From: a virus
Taxonomy: Duplodnaviria; Heunggongvirae; Uroviricota; Caudoviricetes
Virus record (IMG/VR): IMGVR_UViG_3300042890_004094
Direction: 5' to 3' (one strand)
DNA: 64,000 nucleotides
Made by a program: the position numbers and the translations under genes. Below are positions 2 through 9,234 of the stretch, in pieces (position 1 is the first letter of the stretch; the number at the start of each line of letters is the position of its first letter). Under the pieces are notes generated by a model. That model did no database searches. It saw only the letters and a list, made by a program, of their open reading frames with translations, and had not been told where the DNA came from.

Positions 2-112
2 CCTGATCAAGTCAATAAAAGTACAGATGGAATGCTCACAGTAAATTACATTGAAGTTCTAGTTGCAAAGATACAGGAACTGGAGAATAGAATAAAACAA
101 TTGGAGAAATAA
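2..112 (+). CDS. C-terminal 36 codons of a gene that starts left of the window (partial)
   Basis: Open frame from position 2 translating ...IQELENRIKQLEK, ending TAA at 110-112 that overlaps the next ATG (TAATG). Confidence 0.4.
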   Translation, partial: PDQVNKSTDGMLTVNYIEVLVAKIQELENRIKQLEK

Positions 113-2028
113 TGGCTTGGATAGATCTTGCAGATAATCAAATGGTAAGCTTTACAGATGCACAAGGTGGTGGTTTTACACTACTTTCAGGTCAAAGTTC
201 GCTGAACTCAAACCAGTGTATGACTAAGGCTGATGCTTTAGGAAAGTATGACTTAGTTACTGCTAGTATGAGTGCATATCAGGACAATCAATTAGTTCCT
301 AAAATTACATGGGTTGCAAATTTGACAAACGGTTTTTGGGAATTAATAATTGATGTCACTAATCCCGGACAAAAATTTGGATTTAACATACCAACTGGTG
401 GATCACCTAGTATTAATATTGATTGGGGAGATACTAATACGTCAAATGTTACAAGTATAGGATTTGTAGAAAATACTTATGCTACACCGGGTACTTATTC
501 AGTAAAAACTTCCGGAAGTGCGTCTAGTATTAGTATTGCTTTAGTAACCGGTAATTGTGGACCATTGGTATTAAGTACATCTAAAATATCTGGAATAAGT
601 GGTTTGGGATCACTGCCAGAGTTATTCAAAGGATGTACTAATTTAACAAGTATTCCTTCAGATTTATTTAGTGATCTTACTGCGGTTCAAAATTTTTATG
701 GAACGTTTGTGGGTTGTACATCTTTAACTAGCATTCCTGGAAACCTATTTACTAACAATGTAAATGCTCTCCTTTTTAATTATACATTCTGGAATTGTAC
801 AGGTTTAACTGGTAGTATACCTGCAGGTTTATTTGATAATTGTCCGTCAGTAAATTCGTTCCAAGCCACATTCTATAATTGTACAGGTTTAACTGGTAGT
901 ATACCTGCAGGTTTATTTGATAATTGTCCGCTTGTTACAAGATTTGATCAAACATTCTCTAATTGTTCAGATTTAACTGGTATACCTACTGGTTTATTTG
1001 ATAATAATGTACTTGTGGAACTTTTTGTTTTGACATTTGCTTATTGTACATCTTTAACTAGTATACCTTCAGGTTTATTTGATAATTGCCCGGCTGTTAC
1101 AATGTTTTCACAAACATTCGCTGGTACAGGTTTAACTGGTAGTATACCTGTCGATTTATTTGATAATAATGTAAACGTTTACACTTTTTCTGGTGCATTC
1201 GCGCAGTGTGTATCTTTAACTAGCATACCTTCAGGTTTATTTGATACTAATTCAAATGTACTCGATTTTAGTTTTTTATTCAATGGTTGTTTCTCATTAG
1301 ATAGCATACCTGGGGGTTTATTTGATAATAATGAACTTGTTACAAATTTTTCTGGTGTATTTCAAAATTGTACATCTTTAACTAGCATCCCTGTGGGCTT
1401 ATTTGATAATAATGTACTTGTGGACAATTTTCAACAAGCATTCTATACTTGTTCAGATTTAACTGGAAGTATACCAACAGGTTTATTTGATAATAATGAA
1501 CTTGTTACAAATTTTTCTGCGACATTCAGGGATTGTACATCTTTAACTAGTATACCTACAGGTTTATTTGATAATAATGAACTTGTTATAAATTTTAGTT
1601 ATACATTTAATAACTGTGCTTCTTTAACTAGTATACCTGCGGGATTATTTGATAATAATGTAAATGTTACAACATTCCTAGCGATATTCTCAAGTTGTGT
1701 AAATTTGACTACAGTTCCTAGTAATTTATTTGTACCACTTTCTTCTTCTTCCATTAATTTTAATAGTGTATTTAGAGATTGCCGTAGCTTGGTACAGACT
1801 CCTGATATATTTGGTACTTCATATTCTACAACGTTCTTAAATAAAAATGTAAACTTCGGATCGGCATTTGAATTAGATAACTCTTACTTGGGTGCTACTA
1901 TTGGAGTAGCACCCGAATTATGGTCATTTGATTATGGTACCGGTTCTGCTACTAAAACTGATTGTTGGCAAGGTCATAGTACATCTTCCGTATCTAATTA
2001 TGCGTCAATACCAGGAGTATGGACATAG
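112..2028 (+). CDS. BspA-type leucine-rich-repeat protein
   Basis: 638-aa ORF with about 16 tandem ~23-aa units of the form C-T-S-L-T-S-I-P-x-G-L-F-D-N-N; near-identical 69-nt DNA repeats, e.g. 799-849 vs 868-918. Confidence 0.8.
   Translation: MAWIDLADNQMVSFTDAQGGGFTLLSGQSSLNSNQCMTKADALGKYDLVTASMSAYQDNQLVPKITWVANLTNGFWELIIDVTNPGQKFGFNIPTGGSPSINIDWGDTNTSNVTSIGFVENTYATPGTYSVKTSGSASSISIALVTGNCGPLVLSTSKISGISGLGSLPELFKGCTNLTSIPSDLFSDLTAVQNFYGTFVGCTSLTSIPGNLFTNNVNALLFNYTFWNCTGLTGSIPAGLFDNCPSVNSFQATFYNCTGLTGSIPAGLFDNCPLVTRFDQTFSNCSDLTGIPTGLFDNNVLVELFVLTFAYCTSLTSIPSGLFDNCPAVTMFSQTFAGTGLTGSIPVDLFDNNVNVYTFSGAFAQCVSLTSIPSGLFDTNSNVLDFSFLFNGCFSLDSIPGGLFDNNELVTNFSGVFQNCTSLTSIPVGLFDNNVLVDNFQQAFYTCSDLTGSIPTGLFDNNELVTNFSATFRDCTSLTSIPTGLFDNNELVINFSYTFNNCASLTSIPAGLFDNNVNVTTFLAIFSSCVNLTTVPSNLFVPLSSSSINFNSVFRDCRSLVQTPDIFGTSYSTTFLNKNVNFGSAFELDNSYLGATIGVAPELWSFDYGTGSATKTDCWQGHSTSSVSNYASIPGVWT
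649..1750 (+). repeat. Tandem ~69-bp coding repeats (LRR units) inside the 112..2028 gene
   Basis: Repeated tgtac/agatttaactggtagtatacctgcaggtttatttgataat... units visible by eye. Confidence 0.7.
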
Positions 2029-2037
2029 AAATTGTTG

Positions 2038-2122
2038 AAGAGAGTAAGGGAATCGAACCCTACCCAGTTTCCCGGGCGTCTCGCTTAGCAGGCGGACCCT
2101 ATCACCATCAAGGTTTACTCTC
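2038..2122 (-). tRNA. tRNA-Ser(GCT), type II (long variable arm)
   Basis: Reverse complement GGAGAGT...GGGTTCGATTCCC...ACTCTCT; anticodon loop CTGCTAA; variable-arm hairpin CCCGG-GAAA-CTGGG. Confidence 0.7.
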
Positions 2123-2133
2123 CATATTTTGTA

Positions 2134-2216
2134 GTGAGCAAGGGAATCGAACCCTATACATCTAAACGTACGCACTGCTTTCCAGGCAGACCCTATCACC
2201 ATCAAGGATTACTCAC
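2134..2216 (-). tRNA. tRNA-Ser(GGA), type II
   Basis: D-arm identical to previous tRNA; anticodon loop CTGGAAA; T-arm GGGTTCGATTCCC. Confidence 0.6.
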
Positions 2217-2226
2217 TATGTTGTTG

Positions 2227-2313
2227 CGGAGAAAACAGGGCTCGAACCTGCACACCAGTTTCCCGATACCGGTTTTCAAGACCGGGGCGATACCAATTAC
2301 GCTTTACTTCTCC
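2227..2313 (-). tRNA. tRNA-Ser(TGA), type II
   Basis: Reverse complement GGAGAAG...CCGGT-CTTGAAA-ACCGG...GGTTCGAGCCC...TTTCTCC. Confidence 0.7.
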
Positions 2314-2324
2314 AAGTAATTTAG

Positions 2325-2408
2325 AAGAGAGTGTGGGACTCGAACCCACAAAGGTATTACCCTTTACTAGTTTTCAAAACTAGGCCTTCATCCAGCCAGT
2401 TACTCTCC
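2325..2408 (-). tRNA. tRNA-Ser(TGA) second copy, type II
   Basis: Reverse complement GGAGAGT...CTAGT-TTTGAAA-ACTAG...GGGTTCGAGTCCCAC...ACTCTCT. Confidence 0.6.
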
Positions 2409-2417
2409 ATATATTTG

Positions 2418-2489
2418 TGATTCCAGAGGGAATCGAACCCCCACCTGATCGTTCGTAGCGACCTATCCTATCCGTTAAACGATGGAACC
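2418..2489 (-). tRNA. tRNA-Arg(ACG)
   Basis: Reverse complement GGTTCCA...GGTCG-CTACGAA-CGATC...GGGGGTTCGATTCCC...TGGAATC. Confidence 0.7.
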
Positions 2490-2496
2490 AATTAAA

Positions 2497-2536
2497 AACA
2501 AAAAACCCACAAACTTTGAAGTCTGTGGGTTTCATA
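2497..2536. terminator. Hairpin with flanking T/A runs (factor-independent terminator candidate; minus-strand reading gives stem then TTTTTTGTTTTT)
   Basis: aacccacaaac-tttgaa-gtctgtgggtt preceded on the plus strand by aaaaacaaaaaa. Confidence 0.5.
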
Positions 2537-2553
2537 CTAATTTTTTATATCAA

Positions 2554-2631
2554 TTATGAACACAACAGAACCTCCCTCAAATTACTTGAGCGACTAGACG
2601 AACTTGACGATGTTGTGATAATTGTTTTCAT
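2554..2631 (-). CDS. Micro-ORF (25 aa, MKTIITTSSSSSSRSSNLREVLLCS) directly fused to the conserved promoter-like motif; may instead be a small RNA
   Basis: ATG immediately follows TTTTAATATATAAATAAT on the minus strand; terminated by the hairpin at 2497-2536; a related copy lies at 3695-3805. Confidence 0.25.
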   Translation of the reverse strand: MKTIITTSSSSSSRSSNLREVLLCS

Positions 2632-2636
2632 ATTAT

Positions 2637-2653
2637 TTATATATTAAAATTTT
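2637..2653 (-). promoter_or_regulatory. Conserved AT-rich promoter-like motif (minus-strand reading AAAATTTTAATATATAA)
   Basis: Member of a TTTTAATATATA family that recurs upstream of at least 10 genes in this window. Confidence 0.45.
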
Positions 2654-2675
2654 ATTCTTTGTTTTTATTTATTTG

Positions 2676-2809
2676 ATAGAAAGGTGGGACTCGAACCCAC
2701 AACCACGGCTTTAACAGAGCGAAGTAACTTATTTCATTGCTACTAAGAGTTTCTTAGAGAAAGACTGACTAAGTATGATTACGTGCTCTACCAATTGAGC
2801 TACTTTCTA
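2676..2809 (-). tRNA. tRNA-like gene interrupted by a ~58-nt insertion (possible intron); anticodon region reads TCATAC (possibly CAT)
   Basis: Canonical 5' half TAGAAAG-TA-GCTC-AATTGGTA-GAGC and canonical 3' half GTGGG-TTCGAGT-CCCAC-CTTTCTA form a perfect 7-bp acceptor, but are separated by about 58 extra nt; no 3' anticodon-stem partner found at the canonical place. Confidence 0.5.
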
Positions 2810-2813
2810 TTTG

Positions 2814-2884
2814 CACGTCGACTAGGGCTCGAACCTAGAACATTGGTTTTGGAGACCAAGATGATACCATTTCACTATCGACGT
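2814..2884 (-). tRNA. tRNA-Trp(CCA)
   Basis: Reverse complement ACGTCGA...TTGGT-CTCCAAA-ACCAA...CTAGGTTCGAGCCCTAG-TCGACGT. Confidence 0.7.
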
Positions 2885-2891
2885 GTTTTGG

Positions 2892-2965
2892 GTTGACAGA
2901 CGGGACTTGAACCCGCAATCCCTTGGTTCACAACCAAGTGCTTTAACCAATTAAGCTACCATCAA
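2892..2965 (-). tRNA. tRNA-His(GTG)
   Basis: Reverse complement TTGATGG...CTTGG-TTGTGAA-CCAAG...GCGGGTTCAAGTCCCGT-CTGTCAA, discriminator C. Confidence 0.65.
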
Positions 2966-2967
2966 AG

Positions 2968-3042
2968 TGACCCCGGTGAGACTCGAACTCACAACCCCCG
3001 CATTAAAAGTGCGGTGCTCTAAACCAATTGAGCTACGAAGTC
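2968..3042 (-). tRNA. tRNA-Lys(TTT)
   Basis: Reverse complement GACTTCG-TAGCTCAATTGG...CCGCA-CTTTTAA-TGCGG...GTGAGTTCGAGTCTCAC-CGGGGTC. Confidence 0.7.
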
Positions 3043-3052
3043 ATTATTATTG

Positions 3053-3124
3053 TGCGGACTGACGGAATCGAACCGACCTCTTAGGGACTTCACTCCTACG
3101 CTAAACCGTCTCAGCTAAATCCGC
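3053..3124 (-). tRNA. tRNA, anticodon uncertain (loop GTGAAGT, possibly GAA/Phe-like; imperfect stems)
   Basis: Reverse complement GCGGATT...GGTTCGATTCC...AGTCCGC has a perfect acceptor and T-loop; the anticodon stem has a mismatch. Confidence 0.5.
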
Positions 3125-3130
3125 AATTTT

Positions 3131-3205
3131 GGGTGAAAGACGGGGATCGAACCCGCGACAACTTGAACCACAATCAAGCACTCTACCACTGAGCTACAAT
3201 CACCA
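3131..3205 (-). tRNA. tRNA-His(GTG)-like second copy (G-1 and C73 present, two T-T mismatches in acceptor stem; possibly degenerate)
   Basis: Reverse complement G-GTGATTG-TAGCTCAGTGGTAGAG...CTTGA-TTGTGGT-TCAAG...GCGGGTTCGATCCCCGT-CTTTCAC-C. Confidence 0.5.
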
Positions 3206-3211
3206 TGTTTG

Positions 3212-3284
3212 TGGACCCTCAGGGAATCGAGCCCTGTCCTTTGGATTTTCAGTCCAACGTACGCACCAGCTATACGAAAGGTCC
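3212..3284 (-). tRNA. tRNA-Phe(GAA)
   Basis: Reverse complement GGACCTT...TTGGA-CTGAAAA-TCCAA...CAGGGCTCGATTCCCTG-AGGGTCC. Confidence 0.65.
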
Positions 3285-3294
3285 ATTATATTTG

Positions 3295-3367
3295 CACAAG
3301 CCAAGGGAGTCGAACCCTTTCCATCCGAGGTTTTGGAGACCTGGTGCATACCATTATGCTGACCTGT
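3295..3367 (-). tRNA. tRNA-Trp(CCA)-like second copy (one mismatched pair in anticodon stem)
   Basis: Reverse complement ACAGGTC...CAGGT-CTCCAAA-ACCTC...AAGGGTTCGACTCCCTT-GGCTTGT; D-loop AATGGTAT shared with the other Trp gene. Confidence 0.5.
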
Positions 3368-3376
3368 ATATATTTG

Positions 3377-3469
3377 AAGAAAGAAGAGTATCGAAACTCT
3401 TAGGGGATATCTCCACGACTAGCCTACCTCTCGGATTCGAACCGAGACCTCTTCAACCTGACTTTCTTT
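3377..3469 (-). tRNA. Aberrant 93-nt tRNA-like element (candidate Ser-CGA type II tRNA with unusually long variable region, or a tRNA remnant)
   Basis: Perfect 7-bp acceptor AAGAAAG/CTTTCTT; internal CTCGG-TTCGAAT-CCGAG stem-loop and a second T-arm-like AAGAG-TTTCGATA-CTCTT; does not fold canonically. Confidence 0.35.
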
Positions 3470-3471
3470 TG

Positions 3472-3544
3472 TGATCCCGGTGGGGCTCGAACCCACAACC
3501 TTCTGATTAAAAGTCAGAAGCTCCACCAATTGAGCTACGAAATC
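3472..3544 (-). tRNA. tRNA-Lys(TTT) second copy
   Basis: Reverse complement GATTTCG-TAGCTCAATTGGTGGAGC...TCTGA-CTTTTAA-TCAGA...GTGGGTTCGAGCCCCAC-CGGGATC. Confidence 0.65.
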
Positions 3545-3549
3545 ATTAG

Positions 3550-3622
3550 TTCCCCCGCCGGGAGTCGAACCCGGCCCCATAGGTTAAAAGCCTATTGCCT
3601 ACTACCAGTTTGCTACGAGGGA
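3550..3622 (-). tRNA. tRNA-Lys(TTT) third copy
   Basis: Reverse complement TCCCTCG...ATAGG-CTTTTAA-CCTAT...GGCCGGGTTCGACTCCCGGC-GGGGGA. Confidence 0.6.
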
Positions 3623-3631
3623 TTATAAAAT

Positions 3632-3670
3632 AAAAAAACCCGAACTTTTTTATAAGTTCGGGTTTACGTT
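3632..3670. terminator. Strong hairpin with flanking A/T runs (bidirectional factor-independent terminator candidate upstream of the tRNA array)
   Basis: aaaaaaacccgaacttttttataagttcgggtttacgttt. Confidence 0.6.
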
Positions 3671-3694
3671 TATGCTTTATTCTCTTTTATGACA

Positions 3695-3805
3695 TTATCC
3701 TATAATAACATCTTCTTTTGAGAACGACATACTCATACATCCGAACTTGTGGCTAAACCACTTGAACGACTTACTAAAGCTTGTATGTTTGAAATTTGTT
3801 CTCAT
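3695..3805 (-). CDS. Micro-ORF (36 aa, MRTNFKHTSFSKSFKWFSHKFGCMSMSFSKEDVIIG), a related copy of 2554..2631; may be a small RNA
   Basis: ATG fused to TTTTAATATATATAACA on the minus strand, followed by the 3632-3670 terminator. Confidence 0.25.
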   Translation of the reverse strand: MRTNFKHTSFSKSFKWFSHKFGCMSMSFSKEDVIIG

Positions 3806-3807
3806 TG

Positions 3808-3826
3808 TTATATATATTAAAAGTTT
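3808..3826 (-). promoter_or_regulatory. Conserved promoter-like motif (minus-strand AAACTTTTAATATATATAA)
   Basis: Same motif family as 2637-2653. Confidence 0.45.
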
Positions 3827-3895
3827 ATTCTCTCTTTTTGTTTTTTTGTTATTTTTATAGTACAAAAGTAATAAAAGTTTACTTATCTACCTAAT

Positions 3896-4090
3896 TTATT
3901 TTAATTTATTTTTAATTTTCTCTGCAATCTTCTCTAAACTTGATTTAGAAGTCTCTTTCTGTTTTGGAAATCTACCATGATTTCCCATACTATCATAGTC
4001 AGTACATTCATACGCACTAGGTGACGGTAGTCCACTATAGTGACAGAATTCTTCTTCACTAAGTATTTCTTTTTTATCTTCTTTTTTCAT
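3896..4090 (-). CDS. Hypothetical small protein (64 aa)
   Basis: ORF only; no recognisable motif. Confidence 0.35.
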   Translation of the reverse strand: MKKEDKKEILSEEEFCHYSGLPSPSAYECTDYDSMGNHGRFPKQKETSKSSLEKIAEKIKNKLK

Positions 4091-4140
4091 ACTATAAATA
4101 TACTACTTTATTTTATTCTACCAAACTTTAATACAAAAAA

Positions 4141-7100
4141 TTATCGTTTTAGTGTAAAATGTCCTTTATGTATTCTACCATCATTTCTGTAAGCAACGAA
4201 CCAGTAATCATTAGAAAATATCTGATTTCCATTGTAGGTTCCATCCCATCCTTGGCTAGTTGAATTAAATGATGTAATTATTTTACCATAACGATCATAA
4301 ATAATAACTTTAAAATCAGGTTCATTTTCAGAATCTTTAATTCTCCAATAATCATTATATCCATCATTATTGGGAGTAAAGAATTTGTCATAGTAAAGCA
4401 GCCAAATAACTTGACTAGTGATCCCACAATTAGCTTTATCTCTTACATAAACAGTGTATAATCCGGTAGTTAAATTATCAAAGTAGTTTTCATTTTGGTA
4501 TGTAACATTATCTAGAGAATATTCAAAGGTTCCATTACCAGATGTAATTACTGTAATAGTGTTTTCTCTAGCGGTCCAATCTGATATTTCAATACTTTCA
4601 ATAACTGGTGGTCCAGAAATGATTACATTAATACTCTGACTATTACTACAAGCCAATCCATTATAAGTATTTGTGGCGGTAACTGTTAGATTTGTTATAC
4701 CAATATCAGTAATACTAATAGATGGAGTTGTTTCACCATTAGACCAAATATAGGTAGTTGAAGACAAATTATTAGATGTAGCATCAATAATAGTAGGATT
4801 GGTTGTGCAATTCAAATAGTTTTGACTTAGATTCAAATTTGGTATTTTTCCCACAATTAAATTAAATGTTCTTAATTCATAGCAATTAGGTAAAGAGTTA
4901 AGTATAATTTTAGCATAAATAAGTTGTGGATTTATAGAAGGATTAAAACTTACTAAGTTTGTAATTTGATTAGTACCACTTTGTGCATCACTTAACGTAG
5001 TATAATAGGTTATAGTATAATTACTTACTATTTGTGTTCCTAGAATTACAGAATTCTGTTGTGATAAATTAAAAGTTTCATTATTAGTAATAATAGTTTT
5101 ACATTGAAGTAAATCACTAGGATTATTTATCAAAATAAAAGACTCAAGTATACTTACATCAAAAAATCGGTTAACTATATTACCACAATTATCTTCTATT
5201 TGAAAAAGGTAAATTGCTGGATCTAAATTAGAAAAAGTATTTGAAGTACCATTATCAAAAAAGAAAGGTAAACCATTTTTTTGTATAAGAGTATATGTCA
5301 ATGGTGCAGTTCCACTTGCCTCAACAAAAACATCTAAAGCACCGTTTGTAGAGCAAGGTAATCGATAAACATCAATAAATTCTAAAGATTCATTATAACT
5401 TAATGGTTCTAATATTTCAATACAATTTTTATCGGCATTATTTACGTCTGTAGAATTCCAGTCACTTCCATTTTGGAATGATAAAAAAGAACGAACAATT
5501 CGAAAATCGCCATTAGAACTAAAATTAAAATTGGTAGTATTGTTTATTAGGACAATTGAGTTATTTGTATTTGGAATAGTACCATCAGTATAAACTAGAT
5601 TTGTACTAGGATTTCCCCAAGTATTAGTAACCGGATCAATCAATTTTTGTAACCAAAAAGTTTCATTTGATGTTCCATTACTCACAAAGTCTAGTGCAAT
5701 ATCAAAAGAACCACAGTTAGGAACCAATGAAAAATTGGAAGAAGTGATTGTATAACCTTGTAAAATTATGTTAGTAGTATTAGTTAAGTTACATTCATCA
5801 GTTCCAATAAAAGTATAATTTCCTGCAGGAAGATTATTCATATAAAAAATACCATCAGGTGCAATGTTATAAGACACATTTAATGGAAGATTAAAATTAA
5901 ACGTACTAGGAGCTGCTGTAATAATAATAGATGTCAATTTTGAATTCAAACTTTCAATTTTAACTGCACTAGTATTCAAGTCACAACCATTTCTTATAGA
6001 ATTAGATAAACCTTTATCTACATAGGCAGGAACAACAACTGTAATAGGTGTTAAAATATCATTACAAGTATTTGTTAATTCAATTATATAATTTCCTAAC
6101 GGAACTGGATTTAATATAATTGTACCATTATTAATTAAAGAGGTTATATTATGTGGTAAAGTGAAAGGATAATCAGATGGTGCAGAGGTTACTAATCCAG
6201 TTGTGATAATATATCCGGGTATGCTTATATTTATCTTTCCTGTTGTAGTCAGACATCCATTGTGTGATCCTGTTACACTTGGAATAGGTGGTCGATTTAT
6301 TATCGTAAAAGAAATATTTTTAGTATTACCACAAGAATCTGTAATAGTAGCATCATAAGTTCCTATGGGTGTAGGTAATGTTGTATTTCCAAAAGACACA
6401 CTGTTTTGATTATAGGGACCTGGATAGGAGTCATTAAAAACTAGAGGATTAAAACCAGTTGGAAAAGAATTAAAGTTTATAGTATAAGGAGGATAAAAAT
6501 TTGAAAGATTAAATGTAAAAAAGTTTTTGTTACAATCTAAACGGGTTGTAGTGTTGGTTAGGTTTATTCCATTGTTTACAACAAAATTTGTTGAAGAATA
6601 GGTTGAATTACATGCATCAGTAATAGATATTGAGTAACTAAAAGTTTGATTAATGTAATTTGTCATGTTTTGTACCAAATTTTGTTGTGTTAAACCTCCA
6701 GAATTTAAAGTACTATTCAATATAATTGGTACACCTCCAGGTGGTAAAATAGTGTAAGTAATGTTTAACGGATAACCAATAACAGTTCCAGTTGCAGCAG
6801 TTAAGGTATTAGTAACTGAAACTAAGTTACAATTAGATAATTGAGTAATTTGAGGTTGTCCAATTGTAATACCAGTTGTGTTTTGAACGGTTGTAAAAGT
6901 TGTTACAACTCCAATTCCACAATTATCAAAAACTCTAATCTTATAAACACCGATAGGTAAATTAGAAAAAGTATTGGAACTCTGTGATGGAAACAATAAA
7001 GGTCCATTAAATATTTCATAAGAAGCAGGTGTTCCGGTCAGTGTATTTACAGTAATTGTACTTGTGTTAGAACATGCTTGATTTAAAGTTTGAATGTTAT

Positions 7101-7422
7101 AAGTTAAGGAAACAACTGAGTTTACTATTGTTACATCTTGTTGTTGCTCTGTAGTGGTTGTTCCGAAAGTTTCTCTTGCAATAACACGGTAGTCTCCTGC
7201 AACTAATCCATTGATAGTTGTAGAATTTGTTGTTGCAAATGGTGTATCTGTATTGGGTAATTTATAGATGATGTACTGAATACTTCCACCAACAATAGTA
7301 TTGGTTGTATTAAATGTTAAACTACCATTACCTGAACAAGTTTCATTGGTAGTTGCTACTGAAAGGTTGAACCCAAAACAAAATTGGGTCATAAAAAAGA
7401 TAAGATAAATTAGGCTTTTCAT
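4141..7422 (-). CDS. Large secreted Asn/Thr-rich repeat protein with N-terminal signal peptide and C-terminal type-B T9SS sorting domain (gliding-motility-associated C-terminal domain)
   Basis: N-terminus MKSLIYLIFFMTQFCFGF; C-terminus ...FFTPNNDGYNDYWRIKD...YDRYGKII...GWDGTYNG...YWFVA...; many C-x-N Ig-like repeats. Confidence 0.8.
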   Translation of the reverse strand: MKSLIYLIFFMTQFCFGFNLSVATTNETCSGNGSLTFNTTNTIVGGSIQYIIYKLPNTDTPFATTNSTTINGLVAGDYRVIARETFGTTTTEQQQDVTIVNSVVSLTYNIQTLNQACSNTSTITVNTLTGTPASYEIFNGPLLFPSQSSNTFSNLPIGVYKIRVFDNCGIGVVTTFTTVQNTTGITIGQPQITQLSNCNLVSVTNTLTAATGTVIGYPLNITYTILPPGGVPIILNSTLNSGGLTQQNLVQNMTNYINQTFSYSISITDACNSTYSSTNFVVNNGINLTNTTTRLDCNKNFFTFNLSNFYPPYTINFNSFPTGFNPLVFNDSYPGPYNQNSVSFGNTTLPTPIGTYDATITDSCGNTKNISFTIINRPPIPSVTGSHNGCLTTTGKINISIPGYIITTGLVTSAPSDYPFTLPHNITSLINNGTIILNPVPLGNYIIELTNTCNDILTPITVVVPAYVDKGLSNSIRNGCDLNTSAVKIESLNSKLTSIIITAAPSTFNFNLPLNVSYNIAPDGIFYMNNLPAGNYTFIGTDECNLTNTTNIILQGYTITSSNFSLVPNCGSFDIALDFVSNGTSNETFWLQKLIDPVTNTWGNPSTNLVYTDGTIPNTNNSIVLINNTTNFNFSSNGDFRIVRSFLSFQNGSDWNSTDVNNADKNCIEILEPLSYNESLEFIDVYRLPCSTNGALDVFVEASGTAPLTYTLIQKNGLPFFFDNGTSNTFSNLDPAIYLFQIEDNCGNIVNRFFDVSILESFILINNPSDLLQCKTIITNNETFNLSQQNSVILGTQIVSNYTITYYTTLSDAQSGTNQITNLVSFNPSINPQLIYAKIILNSLPNCYELRTFNLIVGKIPNLNLSQNYLNCTTNPTIIDATSNNLSSTTYIWSNGETTPSISITDIGITNLTVTATNTYNGLACSNSQSINVIISGPPVIESIEISDWTARENTITVITSGNGTFEYSLDNVTYQNENYFDNLTTGLYTVYVRDKANCGITSQVIWLLYYDKFFTPNNDGYNDYWRIKDSENEPDFKVIIYDRYGKIITSFNSTSQGWDGTYNGNQIFSNDYWFVAYRNDGRIHKGHFTLKR

Positions 7423-7752: not shown

Positions 7753-7798
7753 AATTGTATTTTGTGTTTTTTATATATAAAATAAAAAATCTTTAAAA

Positions 7799-8002
7799 AT
7801 GCCGGCTCAATCGAAACAGCAACTAAAGTATATTTATGCAATGCGTAATAAATATAAAAACAAGAAAAGTGCTCCTAAACATATGAAGTGGGTATTTAAC
7901 AAAGATTGGACCCAAGACGTTAAAGCCAGTGGGTTACCAACCAAAGTTAAAAGTTTTCAAACTTATGTAAGTGAAAACTATGATGCTTCGACTAAGAAGT
8001 AA
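7799..8002 (+). CDS. Hypothetical small basic protein (67 aa)
   Basis: Lys-rich ORF; 3' end overlaps the convergent tyrS by 25 nt. Confidence 0.4.
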   Translation: MPAQSKQQLKYIYAMRNKYKNKKSAPKHMKWVFNKDWTQDVKASGLPTKVKSFQTYVSENYDASTKK

Positions 8003-9234
8003 CTTTTCTTACCTCTTTGTAGTATGATAAACTTATCATTTATCAAATCAACATCTGTTACGATGTAATCCTCTTCTCTTTTTATTTTATTTATTGCAAC
8101 TGAATTTTCTTTTAAAGCTCTTCTAGCTTCATTATTTGATTTTAAGAAACCTGTTTTAAATAGAATGTCTGTCATTGTAATGCCTACAAGAATTTCTTCC
8201 ATAGGAACTTTCGCTTGTGGTATTCCATTAAATACATCTAAGAATAATTCTTCATCAAGTAAGTTTAAATCTCCACCATTAAATAAAATGTTAGAAGCTT
8301 CTAGTGCTTTTTCAAACTCTTGCTGACCGTGAACCATAATAGTTATTTCTCTTGCTAATTTTTTTTGTAACAAAAATAAGTTCTTTGCTTTATTATGTTC
8401 TTCTATTAAATTATCAATAGTTTCTTTATCTAAAAATGTAAAGATTTTAATGTATTTCTCTGCATCATTATCATCGGTATTTATCCAAAATTGGTAAAAC
8501 TTGTACACAGAGGTCTTATCTTTATCTAACCATATATTTGTACCTCCTTCAGATTTTCCGAACTTAGAACCATCCGATTTAGTTAGTAAAGGACATGTCA
8601 TAGCAAATGCTTCCCTACCAGGATTCATTTTGTGAATTAGTTCAGTTCCTGTTGTAATGTTACCCCATTGATCTGAACCACCCATTTGTAATAAGCAGTT
8701 ATGTTCTTTATTTAGATGGTAGAAATCGTATCCTTGAATCAACTGGTACGTAAATTCTGTGAAAGACATTCCTTCACCTTCAATACGATTTTTCACAGAT
8801 TGTTTAGATAACATGTAATTTACAGTAATTCTTTTACCAATGTCTCTTACAAAGTCTATGAAACTAAATTTTGACATCCAATCGTAGTTATTTACTACAG
8901 GAGTATCACCTAAAAATCTTGTTAGTGTATTTCTAATACCTTCGACATTTTTATTAAGTGTTTCTTCGTCTAATAGATTTCTTTCATTTGACTTACCAGA
9001 GGGGTCACCGATCATACCAGTGGCACCTCCAACAAGTGCGATAGGATTGTGTCCAAAATTCTTCATATGTTTTAAAAGAATGATTGGAACTAAACTACCG
9101 ATATGTAGAGAATCTGACGTTGGATCAAAACCGATATAAGAGGTGGTGGCTTCTTTTAAAAGTTGAGCCTCCGTTCCTGGTATTATATCGTGTACCAACC
9201 CACGCCATTTTAATTCTTCTACTATATTTTTCAT
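7978..9234 (-). CDS. tyrS: Tyrosyl-tRNA synthetase, bacterial type
   Basis: GFDPTSDSLHIGSLVP (HIGH-region), GGATGMIGDP, GGSDQWGNIT and KFGKSEGG (KMSKS-like) motifs; C-terminal S4-like region. Confidence 0.9.
   Translation of the reverse strand: MKNIVEELKWRGLVHDIIPGTEAQLLKEATTSYIGFDPTSDSLHIGSLVPIILLKHMKNFGHNPIALVGGATGMIGDPSGKSNERNLLDEETLNKNVEGIRNTLTRFLGDTPVVNNYDWMSKFSFIDFVRDIGKRITVNYMLSKQSVKNRIEGEGMSFTEFTYQLIQGYDFYHLNKEHNCLLQMGGSDQWGNITTGTELIHKMNPGREAFAMTCPLLTKSDGSKFGKSEGGTNIWLDKDKTSVYKFYQFWINTDDNDAEKYIKIFTFLDKETIDNLIEEHNKAKNLFLLQKKLAREITIMVHGQQEFEKALEASNILFNGGDLNLLDEELFLDVFNGIPQAKVPMEEILVGITMTDILFKTGFLKSNNEARRALKENSVAINKIKREEDYIVTDVDLINDKFIILQRGKKSYFLVEAS

What the first reader, a model, noticed from the sequence alone, without database searches (positions are those of the whole stretch)
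2497..2660. Promoter-motif, micro-ORF and terminator module present in two diverged copies around the tRNA array
At 2497-2660 and 3632-3830 (minus orientation) the same architecture recurs. A TTTTAATATATA motif is fused to an ATG, followed by a short Ser-rich micro-ORF (25 and 36 aa, both starting M-K/R-T). About 100-200 nt of partly similar sequence follows, and then a strong hairpin with a U-run. These could be two small RNA genes or micro-protein genes duplicated with the tRNA blocks. The first copy sits between tRNA groups, so a terminator lies inside the array.
Basis: seen in the sequence. Interest (0 to 1): 0.55.

Follow-up and report, generated by a model that had tools for sequence, protein, structure and literature searches.

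The report
Leader-peptide attenuators controlling phage tRNA genes
The two small modules look like ribosome-read switches: each has a tiny reading frame made of the codons served by the tRNA genes just downstream, then a transcription terminator, so this huge phage probably makes those tRNAs only when they run short.

Summary
On the minus strand there are two modules, each with a TTTTAATATATA motif, a micro-ORF (2631-2554, 25 aa; 3805-3695, 36 aa) and a strong intrinsic terminator (2533-2502; 3665-3636).

They are probably not sRNA or micro-protein genes. Each micro-ORF is built from the codons read by the tRNA genes behind its terminator:
- MKTIITT-SSSSSSRSS- precedes tRNA-Arg(ACG) and four tRNA-Ser.
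- MRTN-FKHTSFSKSFKWFSHKF- precedes Lys, Trp, Phe and His tRNAs.

The same design recurs in related huge uncultured phages (LR745206.1, LR756502.1, IMG/VR and metagenome contigs). Other leader classes there are Y/E, I/G/A, N/L/T/M/V/I/R, Q/H/L/P/R and K. The true leader-to-block pairing is the best of 5040 permutations.

In both families a segment inside the ORF can pair with the 5' arm of the terminator, forming an antiterminator, and this pairing shows compensatory changes. The regulatory codon run ends exactly where a stalled ribosome would begin to mask that segment.

Best explanation: trp/his/pheST-type ribosome-mediated attenuation, applied to tRNA genes as a supply feedback. I found no prior description. 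No experiment supports it yet, and the kinetics of the second module are inferred.

The parts
2638..2649 (-). TTTTAATATATA gene-start motif of element B, 6 nt upstream of the ATG. It is a candidate phage promoter or initiation signal.
   Evidence: 9 matches against 2.8 expected; the same motif lies 4-6 nt upstream of long ORFs.
2554..2631 (-). Leader ORF B: MKTIITTSSSSSSRSSNLREVLLCS* (25 codons plus stop).
   Evidence: 28 distinct homologues keep the frame, the Ser run and a CGC/CGT Arg codon.
2584..2610 (-). Regulatory codon run of B (codons 8-16): TCG TCA AGT TCG TCT AGT CGC TCA AGT. It samples Ser(UGA), Ser(GGA), Ser(GCU) and Arg(ACG->ICG) decoding.
   Evidence: Sequence. 11 of 24 residues are S or R against a background of 0.115, P = 2.8e-5. 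With the ribosome A-site on codons 2-16 the antiterminator is allowed (P about 0.8); from codon 17 it drops.
2581..2597 (-). Small hairpin P1 of B (GCTCAA...TTGAGG), overlapping the last regulatory codons. It is a candidate RNA polymerase pause or synchronisation hairpin.
   Evidence: 94.7% of cells paired across 22 sequences, UA<->AU and GU/AU/GC exchanges, 0 of 500 shuffles.
2554..2573 (-). Antiterminator 5' strand of B (AGGTTCTGTTGTGTTCATAA): the last 6 codons plus the stop codon.
   Evidence: duplex with 2536-2520, -10.2 kcal/mol. Family-wide two-helix design with compensatory variants.
2520..2536 (-). Shared strand of B (TATGAAACCCACAGACT): the 5' arm of the terminator plus 3 nt upstream. 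It pairs either with 2573-2554 or with the 3' arm.
2492..2533 (-). Intrinsic terminator of B: 14-bp stem GAAACCCACAGACT/AGTTTGTGGGTTTT, loop TCAA, then a T-rich tail.
   Evidence: -19.1 kcal/mol.
2038..2489 (-). tRNA block controlled by B: Arg(ACG) 2489-2417, Ser(UGA) 2406-2324, Ser(UGA) 2313-2226, Ser(GGA) 2217-2131, and probable Ser(GCU) 2124-2038.
   Evidence: ARAGORN and Rfam. Anticodon loops read by eye. The last gene is a type-II tRNA with loop CUGCUAA, missed by ARAGORN; ARAGORN calls a Ser(gct) at the end of the Arg/Ser block in relative L015.
3863..3870 (-). TACTTTTG, a Bacteroidota-type -7 promoter element (TAnnTTTG) upstream of element A.
   Evidence: Sequence. Relatives have TTTG-N20-TAnnTTTG at the same place. 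The consensus comes from established knowledge of Bacteroidetes sigma-A promoters and was not tested here.
3811..3822 (-). TTTTAATATATA gene-start motif of element A, 5 nt upstream of the ATG.
3695..3805 (-). Leader ORF A: MRTNFKHTSFSKSFKWFSHKFGCMSMSFSKEDVIIG* (36 codons plus stop).
   Evidence: 13 or more distinct homologues share the conserved core (T)HKHFSKSxKWFS.
3755..3793 (-). Regulatory codon run of A (codons 5-17): TTC AAA CAT ACA AGC TTT AGT AAG TCG TTC AAG TGG TTT.
   Evidence: 11 of 19 residues in codons 2-20 are F, K, H or W against a background of 0.142, P = 1.2e-5. The antiterminator is allowed with the A-site on codons 2-16 and blocked on codons 17-22 and 25-27.
3741..3748 (-). 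Antiterminator 5' strand of A (AAGTTCGG, codons 20-22). It extends weakly into GATGTATGA.
   Evidence: -13.2 kcal/mol; the 6-bp core is 100% paired in 13 sequences and 4 of its pairs show compensatory changes.
3626..3665 (-). Intrinsic terminator of A: AAACCCGAACTT/AAGTTCGGGTTT, loop ATAAAA, then a T-run. Its 5' arm (3661-3654, CCGAACTT) is the shared strand.
   Evidence: 98.7% paired, 8 covarying pairs.
2680..3622 (-). tRNA block controlled by A: Lys(UUU) x3, Trp(CCA) x2, Phe(GAA) x2 and His(GUG) x2. It also holds an unexplained tRNA-like piece (3470-3370) and an interrupted tRNA with anticodon GUU (2812-2680).

Best explanation
Each module is a ribosome-mediated transcription attenuator placed in front of a block of phage tRNA genes. 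The proposed sequence of events is as follows.

1. Transcription starts upstream, from a Bacteroidota-type promoter and/or the TTTTAATATATA signal.
2. A ribosome translates the leader ORF. Its central run consists of the codons decoded by the tRNAs encoded just behind the terminator:
   - B: TCR, TCT and AGT Ser codons plus CGC Arg.
   - A: Phe, Lys, His and Trp codons.
3. If the charged cognate tRNAs are scarce, the ribosome stalls in that run. The next ORF segment stays naked and pairs with the 5' arm of the terminator as soon as that arm is made (the antiterminator). RNA polymerase then reads through into the tRNA genes.
4. If those tRNAs are plentiful, the ribosome runs onto that segment. 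In B it ends at the stop codon, which lies inside the segment. The terminator hairpin forms and the tRNA block is not transcribed.

The outcome is negative feedback that keeps the supply of exactly those tRNAs matched to demand during infection.

Shown here: the anatomy, the codon-to-tRNA match, conservation, the terminators, and antiterminator complementarity with covariation.

Inferred: translation of the ORFs, transcription-translation coupling, the direction of the response, and the role of hairpin P1 as a pause site.
For: 1. Codon/tRNA match in the window.
- B: 11 of 24 residues are S or R (P = 2.8e-5).
- A: 14 of 35 residues are F, H, K or W (P = 1.6e-4).
- For codons 2-20 alone: 10/19 and 11/19, both P about 1e-5.
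- Every tRNA of block B has a cognate codon in the run.

2. Generality. An objective scan (terminator within 200 nt upstream of a tRNA, longest ORF ending within 60 nt of it) found a micro-ORF at nearly every such terminator; the one exception I noted was a false hit inside a tRNA gene. Other leader classes match their own blocks:
- SYESYYEE -> Glu/Tyr.
- ISIAVIGNGAGAI -> Ile(UAU)/Gly.
- MTTMNLNMTMNLTLNVVNIT -> Asn/Leu/Thr/Met/Val/Ile/Arg.
- IEAIGYAYEAG -> Tyr/Glu/Ile/Gly/Ala.
- TQHLPQR -> Pro/Gln/His/Leu/Arg.
- MKTKLKYKR -> 4 Lys.
The identity pairing is the best of 120 permutations within LR745206.1 and the best of 5040 over 7 classes.

3. Selection on decoding rather than on nucleotides. 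In 28 distinct B leaders, found with a pattern that did not specify the Ser/Arg run, homologous positions switch between TCN and AGY Ser codons. The Arg codon of the run (including second copies in a few leaders) is CGC 27 times and CGT 4 times, both read by the downstream tRNA-Arg(ACG). Pattern hits not followed by tRNAs have no such peptide.

4. Terminators.

5. Antiterminator.
- A family: 6-bp core 100% paired, 4 pairs with double compensatory changes, 0 of 500 shuffles.
- B family: two-helix duplex, mean -10.4 kcal/mol. Variants GATTCGA:TCGAATC, GGTTCGA:TCGAAC, ATCCGA:TCGGAT, GCTCGA:TCGAGT and TCTGT:ACAGA all keep complementarity.

6. Geometry.
- Predicted sequestration of the terminator 5' arm before the 3' arm exists is 0.70 with the ribosome stalled at the Arg codon and 0.23 with it at the stop. 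All 28 sequences go the same way. Window: 0.81 against 0.13.
- Codon-by-codon scans show that the regulatory run ends at the last codon from which a stalled ribosome still permits the antiterminator, in both families.

7. The micro-ORFs carry the same start context as long phage genes.
Against: - There is no transcript, ribosome-profiling or reporter data.
- For the window's own B copy, the antiterminator duplex is not stronger than shuffled controls (z = -1.0, p = 0.15). The case rests on the family.
- In the window clade of A, the ORF runs 15 codons past the antiterminator strand. A ribosome at the stop codon is not predicted to mask it. Termination in the unstalled state therefore needs a kinetic or steric assumption: a ribosome on codons 17-27, or lying between the two strands, at the moment of decision.
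- There is no anti-antiterminator (1:2) as in trp. Untranslated RNA is predicted to read through.
- Leader A is also rich in Ser (8 of 35), yet block A has no tRNA-Ser.
- Some B members have weak duplexes (L026, L074, L027).
- Rfam leader models hit only below threshold, driven by the terminator.
- Transcription-translation coupling in the presumed Bacteroidota host was not examined.
Confidence: 0.78

Rival explanations
1. Same parts, opposite logic (pyrBI-like). A ribosome following RNA polymerase closely to the stop codon physically hinders the terminator hairpin. Efficient translation would then give read-through and stalling would give termination, which is positive feedback.
For: The stop-to-terminator spacers are short: 16-26 nt in B and 19-35 nt in A. 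In E. coli, terminators closer than about 17-30 nt to a stop codon are partly repressed by the terminating ribosome (PMC4824070).
Against: This logic needs no antiterminator, yet a covarying one exists. With a 12-13-nt downstream footprint, a ribosome at the stop does not reach the 5' arm (20 and 29 nt away in the window). It would also switch tRNA genes off exactly when their tRNAs are lacking.
Confidence: 0.1
2. One reading: two independent small genes, either sRNAs of about 110-220 nt or Ser-rich micro-proteins with a function of their own. They would have been duplicated together with the tRNA blocks, and their terminators would merely end those transcripts.
For: Each has a promoter-like motif, an ORF and a terminator. 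The attenuated transcript would exist as a short RNA in any case. Attenuator RNAs and leader peptides with trans functions are known (rnTrpL and peTrpL in Sinorhizobium; PMC7298713, as listed).
Against: The peptide tails, lengths and stop positions are not conserved. What is conserved is the codon run matching the downstream tRNAs, across unrelated leader sequences, together with the pairing to the terminator arm. No protein-like features are apparent.
Confidence: 0.06
3. The hairpins are only insulators or processing signals between tRNA transcription units, and the micro-ORFs are chance frames in AT-rich spacers.
For: AT-rich DNA yields many short ORFs. Rfam recognises no family here.
Against: The frame, the start context and the codon run are conserved in 28 (B) and more than 13 (A) diverged sequences, with synonymous switching. 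The match to the tRNA blocks is the best of 5040 permutations.
Confidence: 0.03

Closest known systems
E. coli pheST attenuator (pheM leader) and the his/trp/leu/thr/ilv amino-acid operon attenuators
   Same: A short leader ORF enriched in regulatory codons, an intrinsic terminator before the regulated genes, and an alternative antiterminator whose formation depends on where the ribosome sits. The signal sensed is the availability of charged tRNA. Multivalent leaders carrying several amino acids exist, as in ilvGMEDA and thr. pheST shows that translation-apparatus genes can be controlled in this way.
   Different: Here the regulated genes are tRNA genes themselves, in a phage genome. Each leader is a 'bar-code' of up to seven amino acids that mirrors the composition of its tRNA block. 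There is no 1:2 anti-antiterminator, so untranslated RNA should read through. There is no Shine-Dalgarno sequence. There is no sequence homology: Rfam His_leader scores 32.5 bits against a gathering score of 49, and Thr_leader 23.8 against 55.
T-box riboswitches
   Same: They also adjust translation-apparatus genes to the charging state of a specific tRNA through a terminator/antiterminator choice.
   Different: A T-box binds uncharged tRNA directly through a specifier codon and the T-box sequence, without a ribosome or an ORF. No T-box match was found by Rfam in 1900-4200 at E <= 1. Here an ORF and a ribosome are the sensor.
pyrBI / pyrE attenuators
   Same: A leader ORF ends close to an intrinsic terminator, and the outcome is set by the distance between ribosome and polymerase.
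   Different: Those systems sense polymerase pausing (UTP) and have no regulatory codon run and no antiterminator. The logic of ribosome arrival is opposite.
Phage tRNA arrays as described for T4, T5, mycobacteriophages and huge phages
   Same: Clusters of tRNA genes carried by large phages, thought to compensate for codon usage or to replace host tRNAs destroyed during infection.
   Different: As far as my literature searches reach, no leader-peptide control of such arrays has been described.

Membership tests
Ribosome-mediated (leader-peptide) transcription attenuator | A short ORF with a credible start lies upstream of, and on the same strand as, the regulated genes. | tested here: met
   ORFs 2631-2554 and 3805-3695. 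Their start context TTTTAATATATA-N5-6-ATG is shared with long genes. The frame is conserved in relatives.
Ribosome-mediated (leader-peptide) transcription attenuator | The leader is enriched in codons whose decoding reports on the product of the regulated genes. | tested here: met
   P = 2.8e-5 and 1.6e-4 in the window. The true pairing is the best of 5040 permutations over 7 classes. Codon-level match to the anticodons.
Ribosome-mediated (leader-peptide) transcription attenuator | An intrinsic terminator lies between the leader ORF and the regulated genes. | tested here: met
   (14-bp and 12-bp stems plus T-runs). Covariation.
Ribosome-mediated (leader-peptide) transcription attenuator | An alternative antiterminator shares a strand with the terminator and is masked by a ribosome that has passed the regulatory codons. 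| tested here: met
   A family: (100% paired, 4 compensatory pairs). B family. Ribosome-position scans. Caveats: the window B duplex alone is not significant, and in the window clade of A a ribosome at the stop codon does not mask the strand.
Ribosome-mediated (leader-peptide) transcription attenuator | An anti-antiterminator / pause hairpin (1:2 of trp) that gives termination without translation. | tested here: not met
   No upstream segment competes for the antiterminator strand. Naked RNA is predicted to form the antiterminator (P 0.74-0.80). A small conserved hairpin P1 exists but does not overlap the antiterminator. This feature is not universal among attenuators.
Ribosome-mediated (leader-peptide) transcription attenuator | Read-through rises when the cognate charged tRNA is limiting. 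| not testable with these tools
   This needs reporter, term-seq or in-vitro coupled assays.
Rfam His_leader (RF00514) / Thr_leader (RF00506) | A score at or above the family gathering threshold. | tested here: not met
   32.5 against 49 bits and 23.8 against 55 bits. The alignment is carried by the terminator. Copy 2 has no leader hit better than 18 bits.
T-box riboswitch | Stem I with a specifier loop, and the conserved T-box sequence in the antiterminator bulge. | tested here: not met
   No T-box family match in 1900-4200 at E <= 1.
Independent sRNA or micro-protein gene | Conservation of the RNA or peptide as a whole, independent of neighbouring genes. | tested here: not met
   The tails and stop positions vary. 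The element was found next to its cognate tRNA block wherever the locus extended far enough to check.

The most novel reading that the evidence does not exclude
Huge Bacteroidota phages carry a modular network of codon-resolved 'tRNA demand sensors'. Every tRNA block has its own leader whose codon bar-code interrogates, isoacceptor by isoacceptor, the pool of charged tRNAs. The phage copies are induced only when the host's tRNAs are depleted, for example by anticodon-nuclease defence systems (Lys, His, Arg, Tyr and Ser tRNAs are typical targets) or by host shut-off. This would be an inducible counter-defence and the first case of tRNA genes under leader-peptide attenuation.
Probability: 0.3. 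Interest if true: 0.95.

Novelty: new variant of a known kind. Interest (0 to 1): 0.86.

Why it matters
Leader-peptide attenuation is a textbook mechanism, but it is known for amino-acid biosynthesis and a few aminoacyl-tRNA synthetase operons, not for tRNA genes and not in phages.

If correct, this shows that large phages do more than carry tRNAs. They meter each tRNA group by a direct read-out of decoding speed. This would change how phage tRNA arrays are interpreted, whether as codon-usage compensation or as replacement of tRNAs destroyed by host defence.

It also gives a simple sequence rule for annotating and predicting regulons: the leader composition equals the content of the tRNA block. 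It further offers compact, programmable, codon-specific sensors for synthetic biology.

The idea is directly testable with reporter fusions and tRNA depletion.

Tried and rejected
- Rfam on the array and on each module. Only tRNAs and sub-threshold, terminator-driven hits (His_leader, Thr_leader, BTnc005, others). No family was assigned.
- Treating the two copies as sequence duplicates. The similarity is confined to the start module and the terminator, and the ORF bodies are not alike. A 12/13 match AGTCG(Y)TCAAGT lies in different frames and is probably coincidental.
- A sigma-70 promoter scan gave no more hits than shuffles, so it is uninformative for this AT-rich, presumably Bacteroidota-type system.
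- Looking for a trp-like 1:2 anti-antiterminator. None is conserved in either family.
- Column-wise covariation of the B antiterminator on MAFFT alignments A1 and A3. This was abandoned because clades differ by 1-nt register shifts in the terminator arm. Per-sequence duplexes were used instead.
- Mononucleotide-shuffle test of the window's own B antiterminator: not significant.
- Folding of the two odd tRNA-like stretches: no significant structure, left unexplained.
- Six literature searches for prior descriptions found none. The library lacks most subscription-journal papers, so this is not proof of absence.

Full report
**1. What is there**

The array lies on the minus strand. Reading 5'->3' on that strand:

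Element A and its block:
- A Bacteroidota-type -7 promoter element, TACTTTTG (3870-3863).
- The motif TTTTAATATATA (3822-3811).
- Micro-ORF A (3805-3695): MRTNFKHTSFSKSFKWFSHKFGCMSMSFSKEDVIIG*.
- A 29-nt spacer.
- A 12-bp terminator hairpin plus T-run (3665-3626).
- tRNAs in order: Lys(UUU), Lys(UUU), an unexplained 100-nt piece, Trp, Phe, His, Phe, Lys, His, Trp, and an interrupted tRNA (2812-2680).

Element B and its block:
- A second TTTTAATATATA (2649-2638).
- Micro-ORF B (2631-2554): MKTIITTSSSSSSRSSNLREVLLCS*.
- A 20-nt spacer.
- A 14-bp terminator hairpin plus T-rich tail (2533-2492).
- tRNA-Arg(ACG), Ser(UGA), Ser(UGA), Ser(GGA) and a probable Ser(GCU) (2489-2038).

The motif is over-represented in the window: 9 matches against 2.8 expected. 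It sits 4-6 nt upstream of the ATG of long genes of 557, 1547, 317, 248 and 110 aa. It is therefore a general gene-start signal of this genome. In relatives it can lie about 20 nt from the ATG, and on either side of a TAnnTTTG element. That pattern fits a phage-specific promoter better than a ribosome-binding site, but I could not decide between the two.

The two copies resemble each other only in this 5' module and in the terminator design. The global alignment has z = 7.9, while the ORF bodies alone give z = 1.2.

**2. The key observation**

The composition of each micro-ORF equals the identity of the tRNA genes behind its terminator.

- B has nine consecutive codons: TCG TCA AGT TCG TCT AGT CGC TCA AGT. 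Together these sample every tRNA of the block: UGA reads TCR, GGA reads TCT, GCU reads AGT, and ACG (as ICG) reads CGC.
- A has Phe x6, Lys x5, His x2 and Trp x1, in front of Lys x3, Phe x2, His x2 and Trp x2.

Against the amino-acid composition of the window's long ORFs:
- B: 11/24, P = 2.8e-5.
- A: 14/35, P = 1.6e-4.
- Codons 2-20 alone: about 1e-5 for each.

**3. Relatives**

The nearest DNA matches are huge uncultured phages, LR745206.1 (635 kb) and LR756502.1 (642 kb). Pattern scans found both elements in IMG/VR contigs of up to 596 kb and in many metagenome contigs.

- Element A always precedes Phe/His/Trp/Lys tRNAs.
- Element B always precedes tRNA-Arg(ACG) plus Ser tRNAs.

The scan used for, 48 fixed only the ORF end and the terminator. 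Even so, every hit followed by tRNA-Arg carries the ...TS(S/K)SSSRSS... run. Hits without tRNAs encode unrelated peptides.

Among 28 distinct B leaders:
- Homologous Ser positions switch between the TCN and AGY boxes.
- The Arg codon is CGC (27) or CGT (4), both decoded by the downstream tRNA.

This is selection on decoding, not on RNA sequence.

An objective scan was run over all loci held. It looked for a terminator within 200 nt upstream of a tRNA and took the longest ATG-ORF ending within 60 nt of it. It recovered further leader classes, each matching its own block:

| Leader | tRNAs downstream |
|---|---|
| MNTITNIASYESYYEEG... | Glu x4, Tyr x2 |
| MKNLNNISIAVIGNGAGAI... | Ile(UAU), Gly, Met/Ile(CAU), Gly |
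| MTTMNLNMTMNLTLNVVNITLCNIR... | Asn, Arg, Leu, Val, Ile, Thr, Met |
| MRTIINIEAIGYAYEAG... | Tyr, Glu, Ile, Gly, Ala |
| MKTKLKYKR* | four tRNA-Lys |
| ...T-Q-H-L-P-Q-R... (different contig) | Pro, Gln, His, Leu, Arg |

Z-scores of every leader against every block were summed over pairings. The true pairing is the best of 120 permutations within LR745206.1. It is also the best of 5040 over seven classes.

**4. RNA switch, A family**

The core AAGTTCGG (codons 20-22; 3748-3741) is complementary to the loop-proximal part of the terminator 5' arm (3661-3654).
- On alignment A2 the 6-bp core is paired in 100% of 13 sequences.
- Four of its pairs show double compensatory changes. For example, L011 has AACTTGG / CCAAGTT, and L002 has ATTCGA / TCGAAT.
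- 0 of 500 shuffles reach the observed covariation, and the signal collapses when the partner is slid by one column.
- The terminator itself is 98.7% paired, with 8 covarying pairs.

The three strands (ORF segment, 5' arm, 3' arm) co-vary together, as expected for a terminator/antiterminator pair.

**5. RNA switch, B family**

The last six or seven codons plus the stop codon form two helices with the terminator 5' arm and the 3-5 nt before it. In the window these are AGGTTCTGTTGTGTTCATAA (2573-2554) and TATGAAACCCACAGACT (2536-2520).
- The mean duplex energy is -10.4 kcal/mol.
- Complementarity is kept through several variants: GATTCGA:TCGAATC, GGTTCGA:TCGAAC, ATCCGA:TCGGAT, GCTCGA:TCGAGT and TCTGT:ACAGA.

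Constrained partition-function folding was run on the transcript up to the terminator loop, that is, before the 3' arm exists. The 5' arm is predicted to be sequestered with:
- mean probability 0.70 when a ribosome footprint is placed at the Arg codon;
- mean probability 0.23 when it is placed at the stop codon.

All 28 sequences go in the same direction. The window gives 0.81 against 0.13.

**6. Ribosome-position scans**

Scanning the ribosome codon by codon shows that the antiterminator is permitted for A-site positions 2-16 and falls from codon 17 onward, in both window elements. The regulatory run therefore ends exactly at the boundary. The same sharp drop after the conserved K-W-F occurs in all 13 A leaders.

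A small hairpin overlaps the last regulatory codons in both families. In B it is 94.7% paired over 22 sequences with compensatory exchanges. It may act as a polymerase pause site that synchronises transcription and translation. This is inference only.

**7. Mechanism proposed**

- Scarce charged cognate tRNA leads to a stall in the run, then the antiterminator, then read-through into the tRNA genes.
- An ample supply lets the ribosome invade the antiterminator strand. In B it parks on the stop codon inside that strand. The terminator forms and no tRNA is made.

This is negative feedback on tRNA supply. Because there is no 1:2 hairpin, untranslated RNA should read through.

The least secure step concerns element A in the window clade. 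The ORF continues 15 codons beyond the antiterminator strand, and a ribosome at the stop is not predicted to mask it. In several relatives it is. Termination then depends on the ribosome being on codons 17-27, or lying between the two strands, while the polymerase makes the terminator. This is a kinetic assumption that I cannot test.

**8. Rivals**

- pyrBI-like logic (a ribosome at the stop blocks the terminator). It is suggested by the short spacers and by E. coli data on terminator repression within about 17-30 nt of a stop codon (PMC4824070). It does not explain the covarying antiterminator, and it would switch tRNA genes off when they are needed.
- Independent sRNA or micro-protein genes, or chance ORFs. 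Neither explains the codon/tRNA match or the pattern of conservation.

**9. Context**

Flanking genes include:
- a DUF285-repeat protein (112-2028);
- a 1093-aa protein with a CHU_C type-IX-secretion domain (4141-7422), a Bacteroidota hallmark;
- a class-I Tyr/Trp-type aminoacyl-tRNA synthetase (7978-9234).

Together with the TAnnTTTG promoter elements, this points to a huge phage of a Bacteroidota host.

**10. Known or new**

Rfam does not recognise the elements. Six full-text searches found no description of leader-peptide control of tRNA genes or of phage tRNA arrays.

The mechanism class is classical. The closest known cases are pheST, his, and multivalent ilv/thr attenuation. What appears new is the target (tRNA genes), the setting (phage) and the block-specific multi-amino-acid bar-code. 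I therefore rate it a new variant of a known kind, with high interest.

Noticed in passing
window 2680-2812 (-); also L009 4385-4515, L011 rc ~7790-7885, L019 rc ~830-980 and ~1020-1170, L022 19029-19110, L055, L083, L090: tRNA genes interrupted by an insertion of about 58-62 nt. The acceptor and D-arm are normal. After ...GAGCACG comes the insert, which ends in a conserved (A)GTAGTGA...AAGAGTTACTT(C). Then follows the rest of the anticodon stem-loop (window: GCT-CTGTTAA-AGCCG, anticodon GUU), the T-arm and the acceptor. Joining ...CG to GCT... would restore a perfect 5-bp anticodon stem, so this looks like an intron within the 5' strand of the anticodon stem. It is far too short for a group I intron. 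ARAGORN and Rfam miss these genes. Copies of the conserved 3' motif also occur outside tRNAs (L001 4690-4760).
   Followed up: partly
window 3370-3470 (-): An unexplained 100-nt stretch inside tRNA block A. It has a T-arm-like CTCGGTTCGAATCCGAG near its 5' end and is closed by GAAGAG/CTCTTC plus AAAGAAAG/CTTTCTT complementarity. It is not called as a tRNA, and its fold is no better than shuffles. It may be a permuted or degenerate tRNA-like element. Relatives have other odd tRNA-like pieces with an ATTCCAACC loop (L001 4608-4680, L011 rc 7165-7252).
   Followed up: partly
window 9879, 18267, 46304 (+); 58643, 56026, 37079, 30985 (-): (A)AACTTTT-TAATATATA recurs immediately upstream (mostly 4-6 nt) of long protein-coding ORFs. 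In some relatives it lies about 20 nt from the ATG and on either side of a host-type TAnnTTTG element. It is a candidate phage-specific promoter, possibly giving leaderless or very short-leader mRNAs.
   Followed up: partly
window 2038-3622 (-): Heavy redundancy of identical anticodons within one array: Lys(UUU) x3, Phe(GAA) x2, His(GUG) x2, Trp(CCA) x2, Ser(UGA) x2. The sequences are clearly different from one another, and some anticodon stems are unusual (for example an A31-C39 mismatch in Phe 3124-3052). This is suggestive of variants that escape tRNA-targeting nucleases.
   Followed up: no
L001 4869-4895 and L002 4755-4781: A third, minimal leader class in relatives: MKTKLKYKR* or MKTKRKYKR*, followed by a hairpin with a poor U-run, directly upstream of three or four tRNA-Lys genes. 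It is absent from the window, where the Lys tRNAs follow element A directly.
   Followed up: partly
window 7978-9234 (-); L002 5434-6140: Phage-encoded class-I Tyr/Trp-type aminoacyl-tRNA synthetase genes lie next to, or in L002 inside, the tRNA arrays (Pfam tRNA-synt_1b 1.4e-78). I did not check whether these genes have leaders of their own.
   Followed up: no
window 112-2028 (+) and 4141-7422 (-): Large repeat proteins flank the array. One is a DUF285/leucine-rich-repeat-like protein with about 20 tandem CTSLTSIP..GLFDNN units. The other is a 1093-aa protein ending in a CHU_C type-IX-secretion sorting domain, which is unusual cargo for a phage and points to a Bacteroidota host.
   Followed up: partly
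L009 10440-10580: After the Y/E leader terminator in this relative there is a second host-type promoter (TTTG-N19-TATCTTTG) and another hairpin plus T-run before the tRNA-Glu. Some blocks may therefore have tandem control elements.
   Followed up: no
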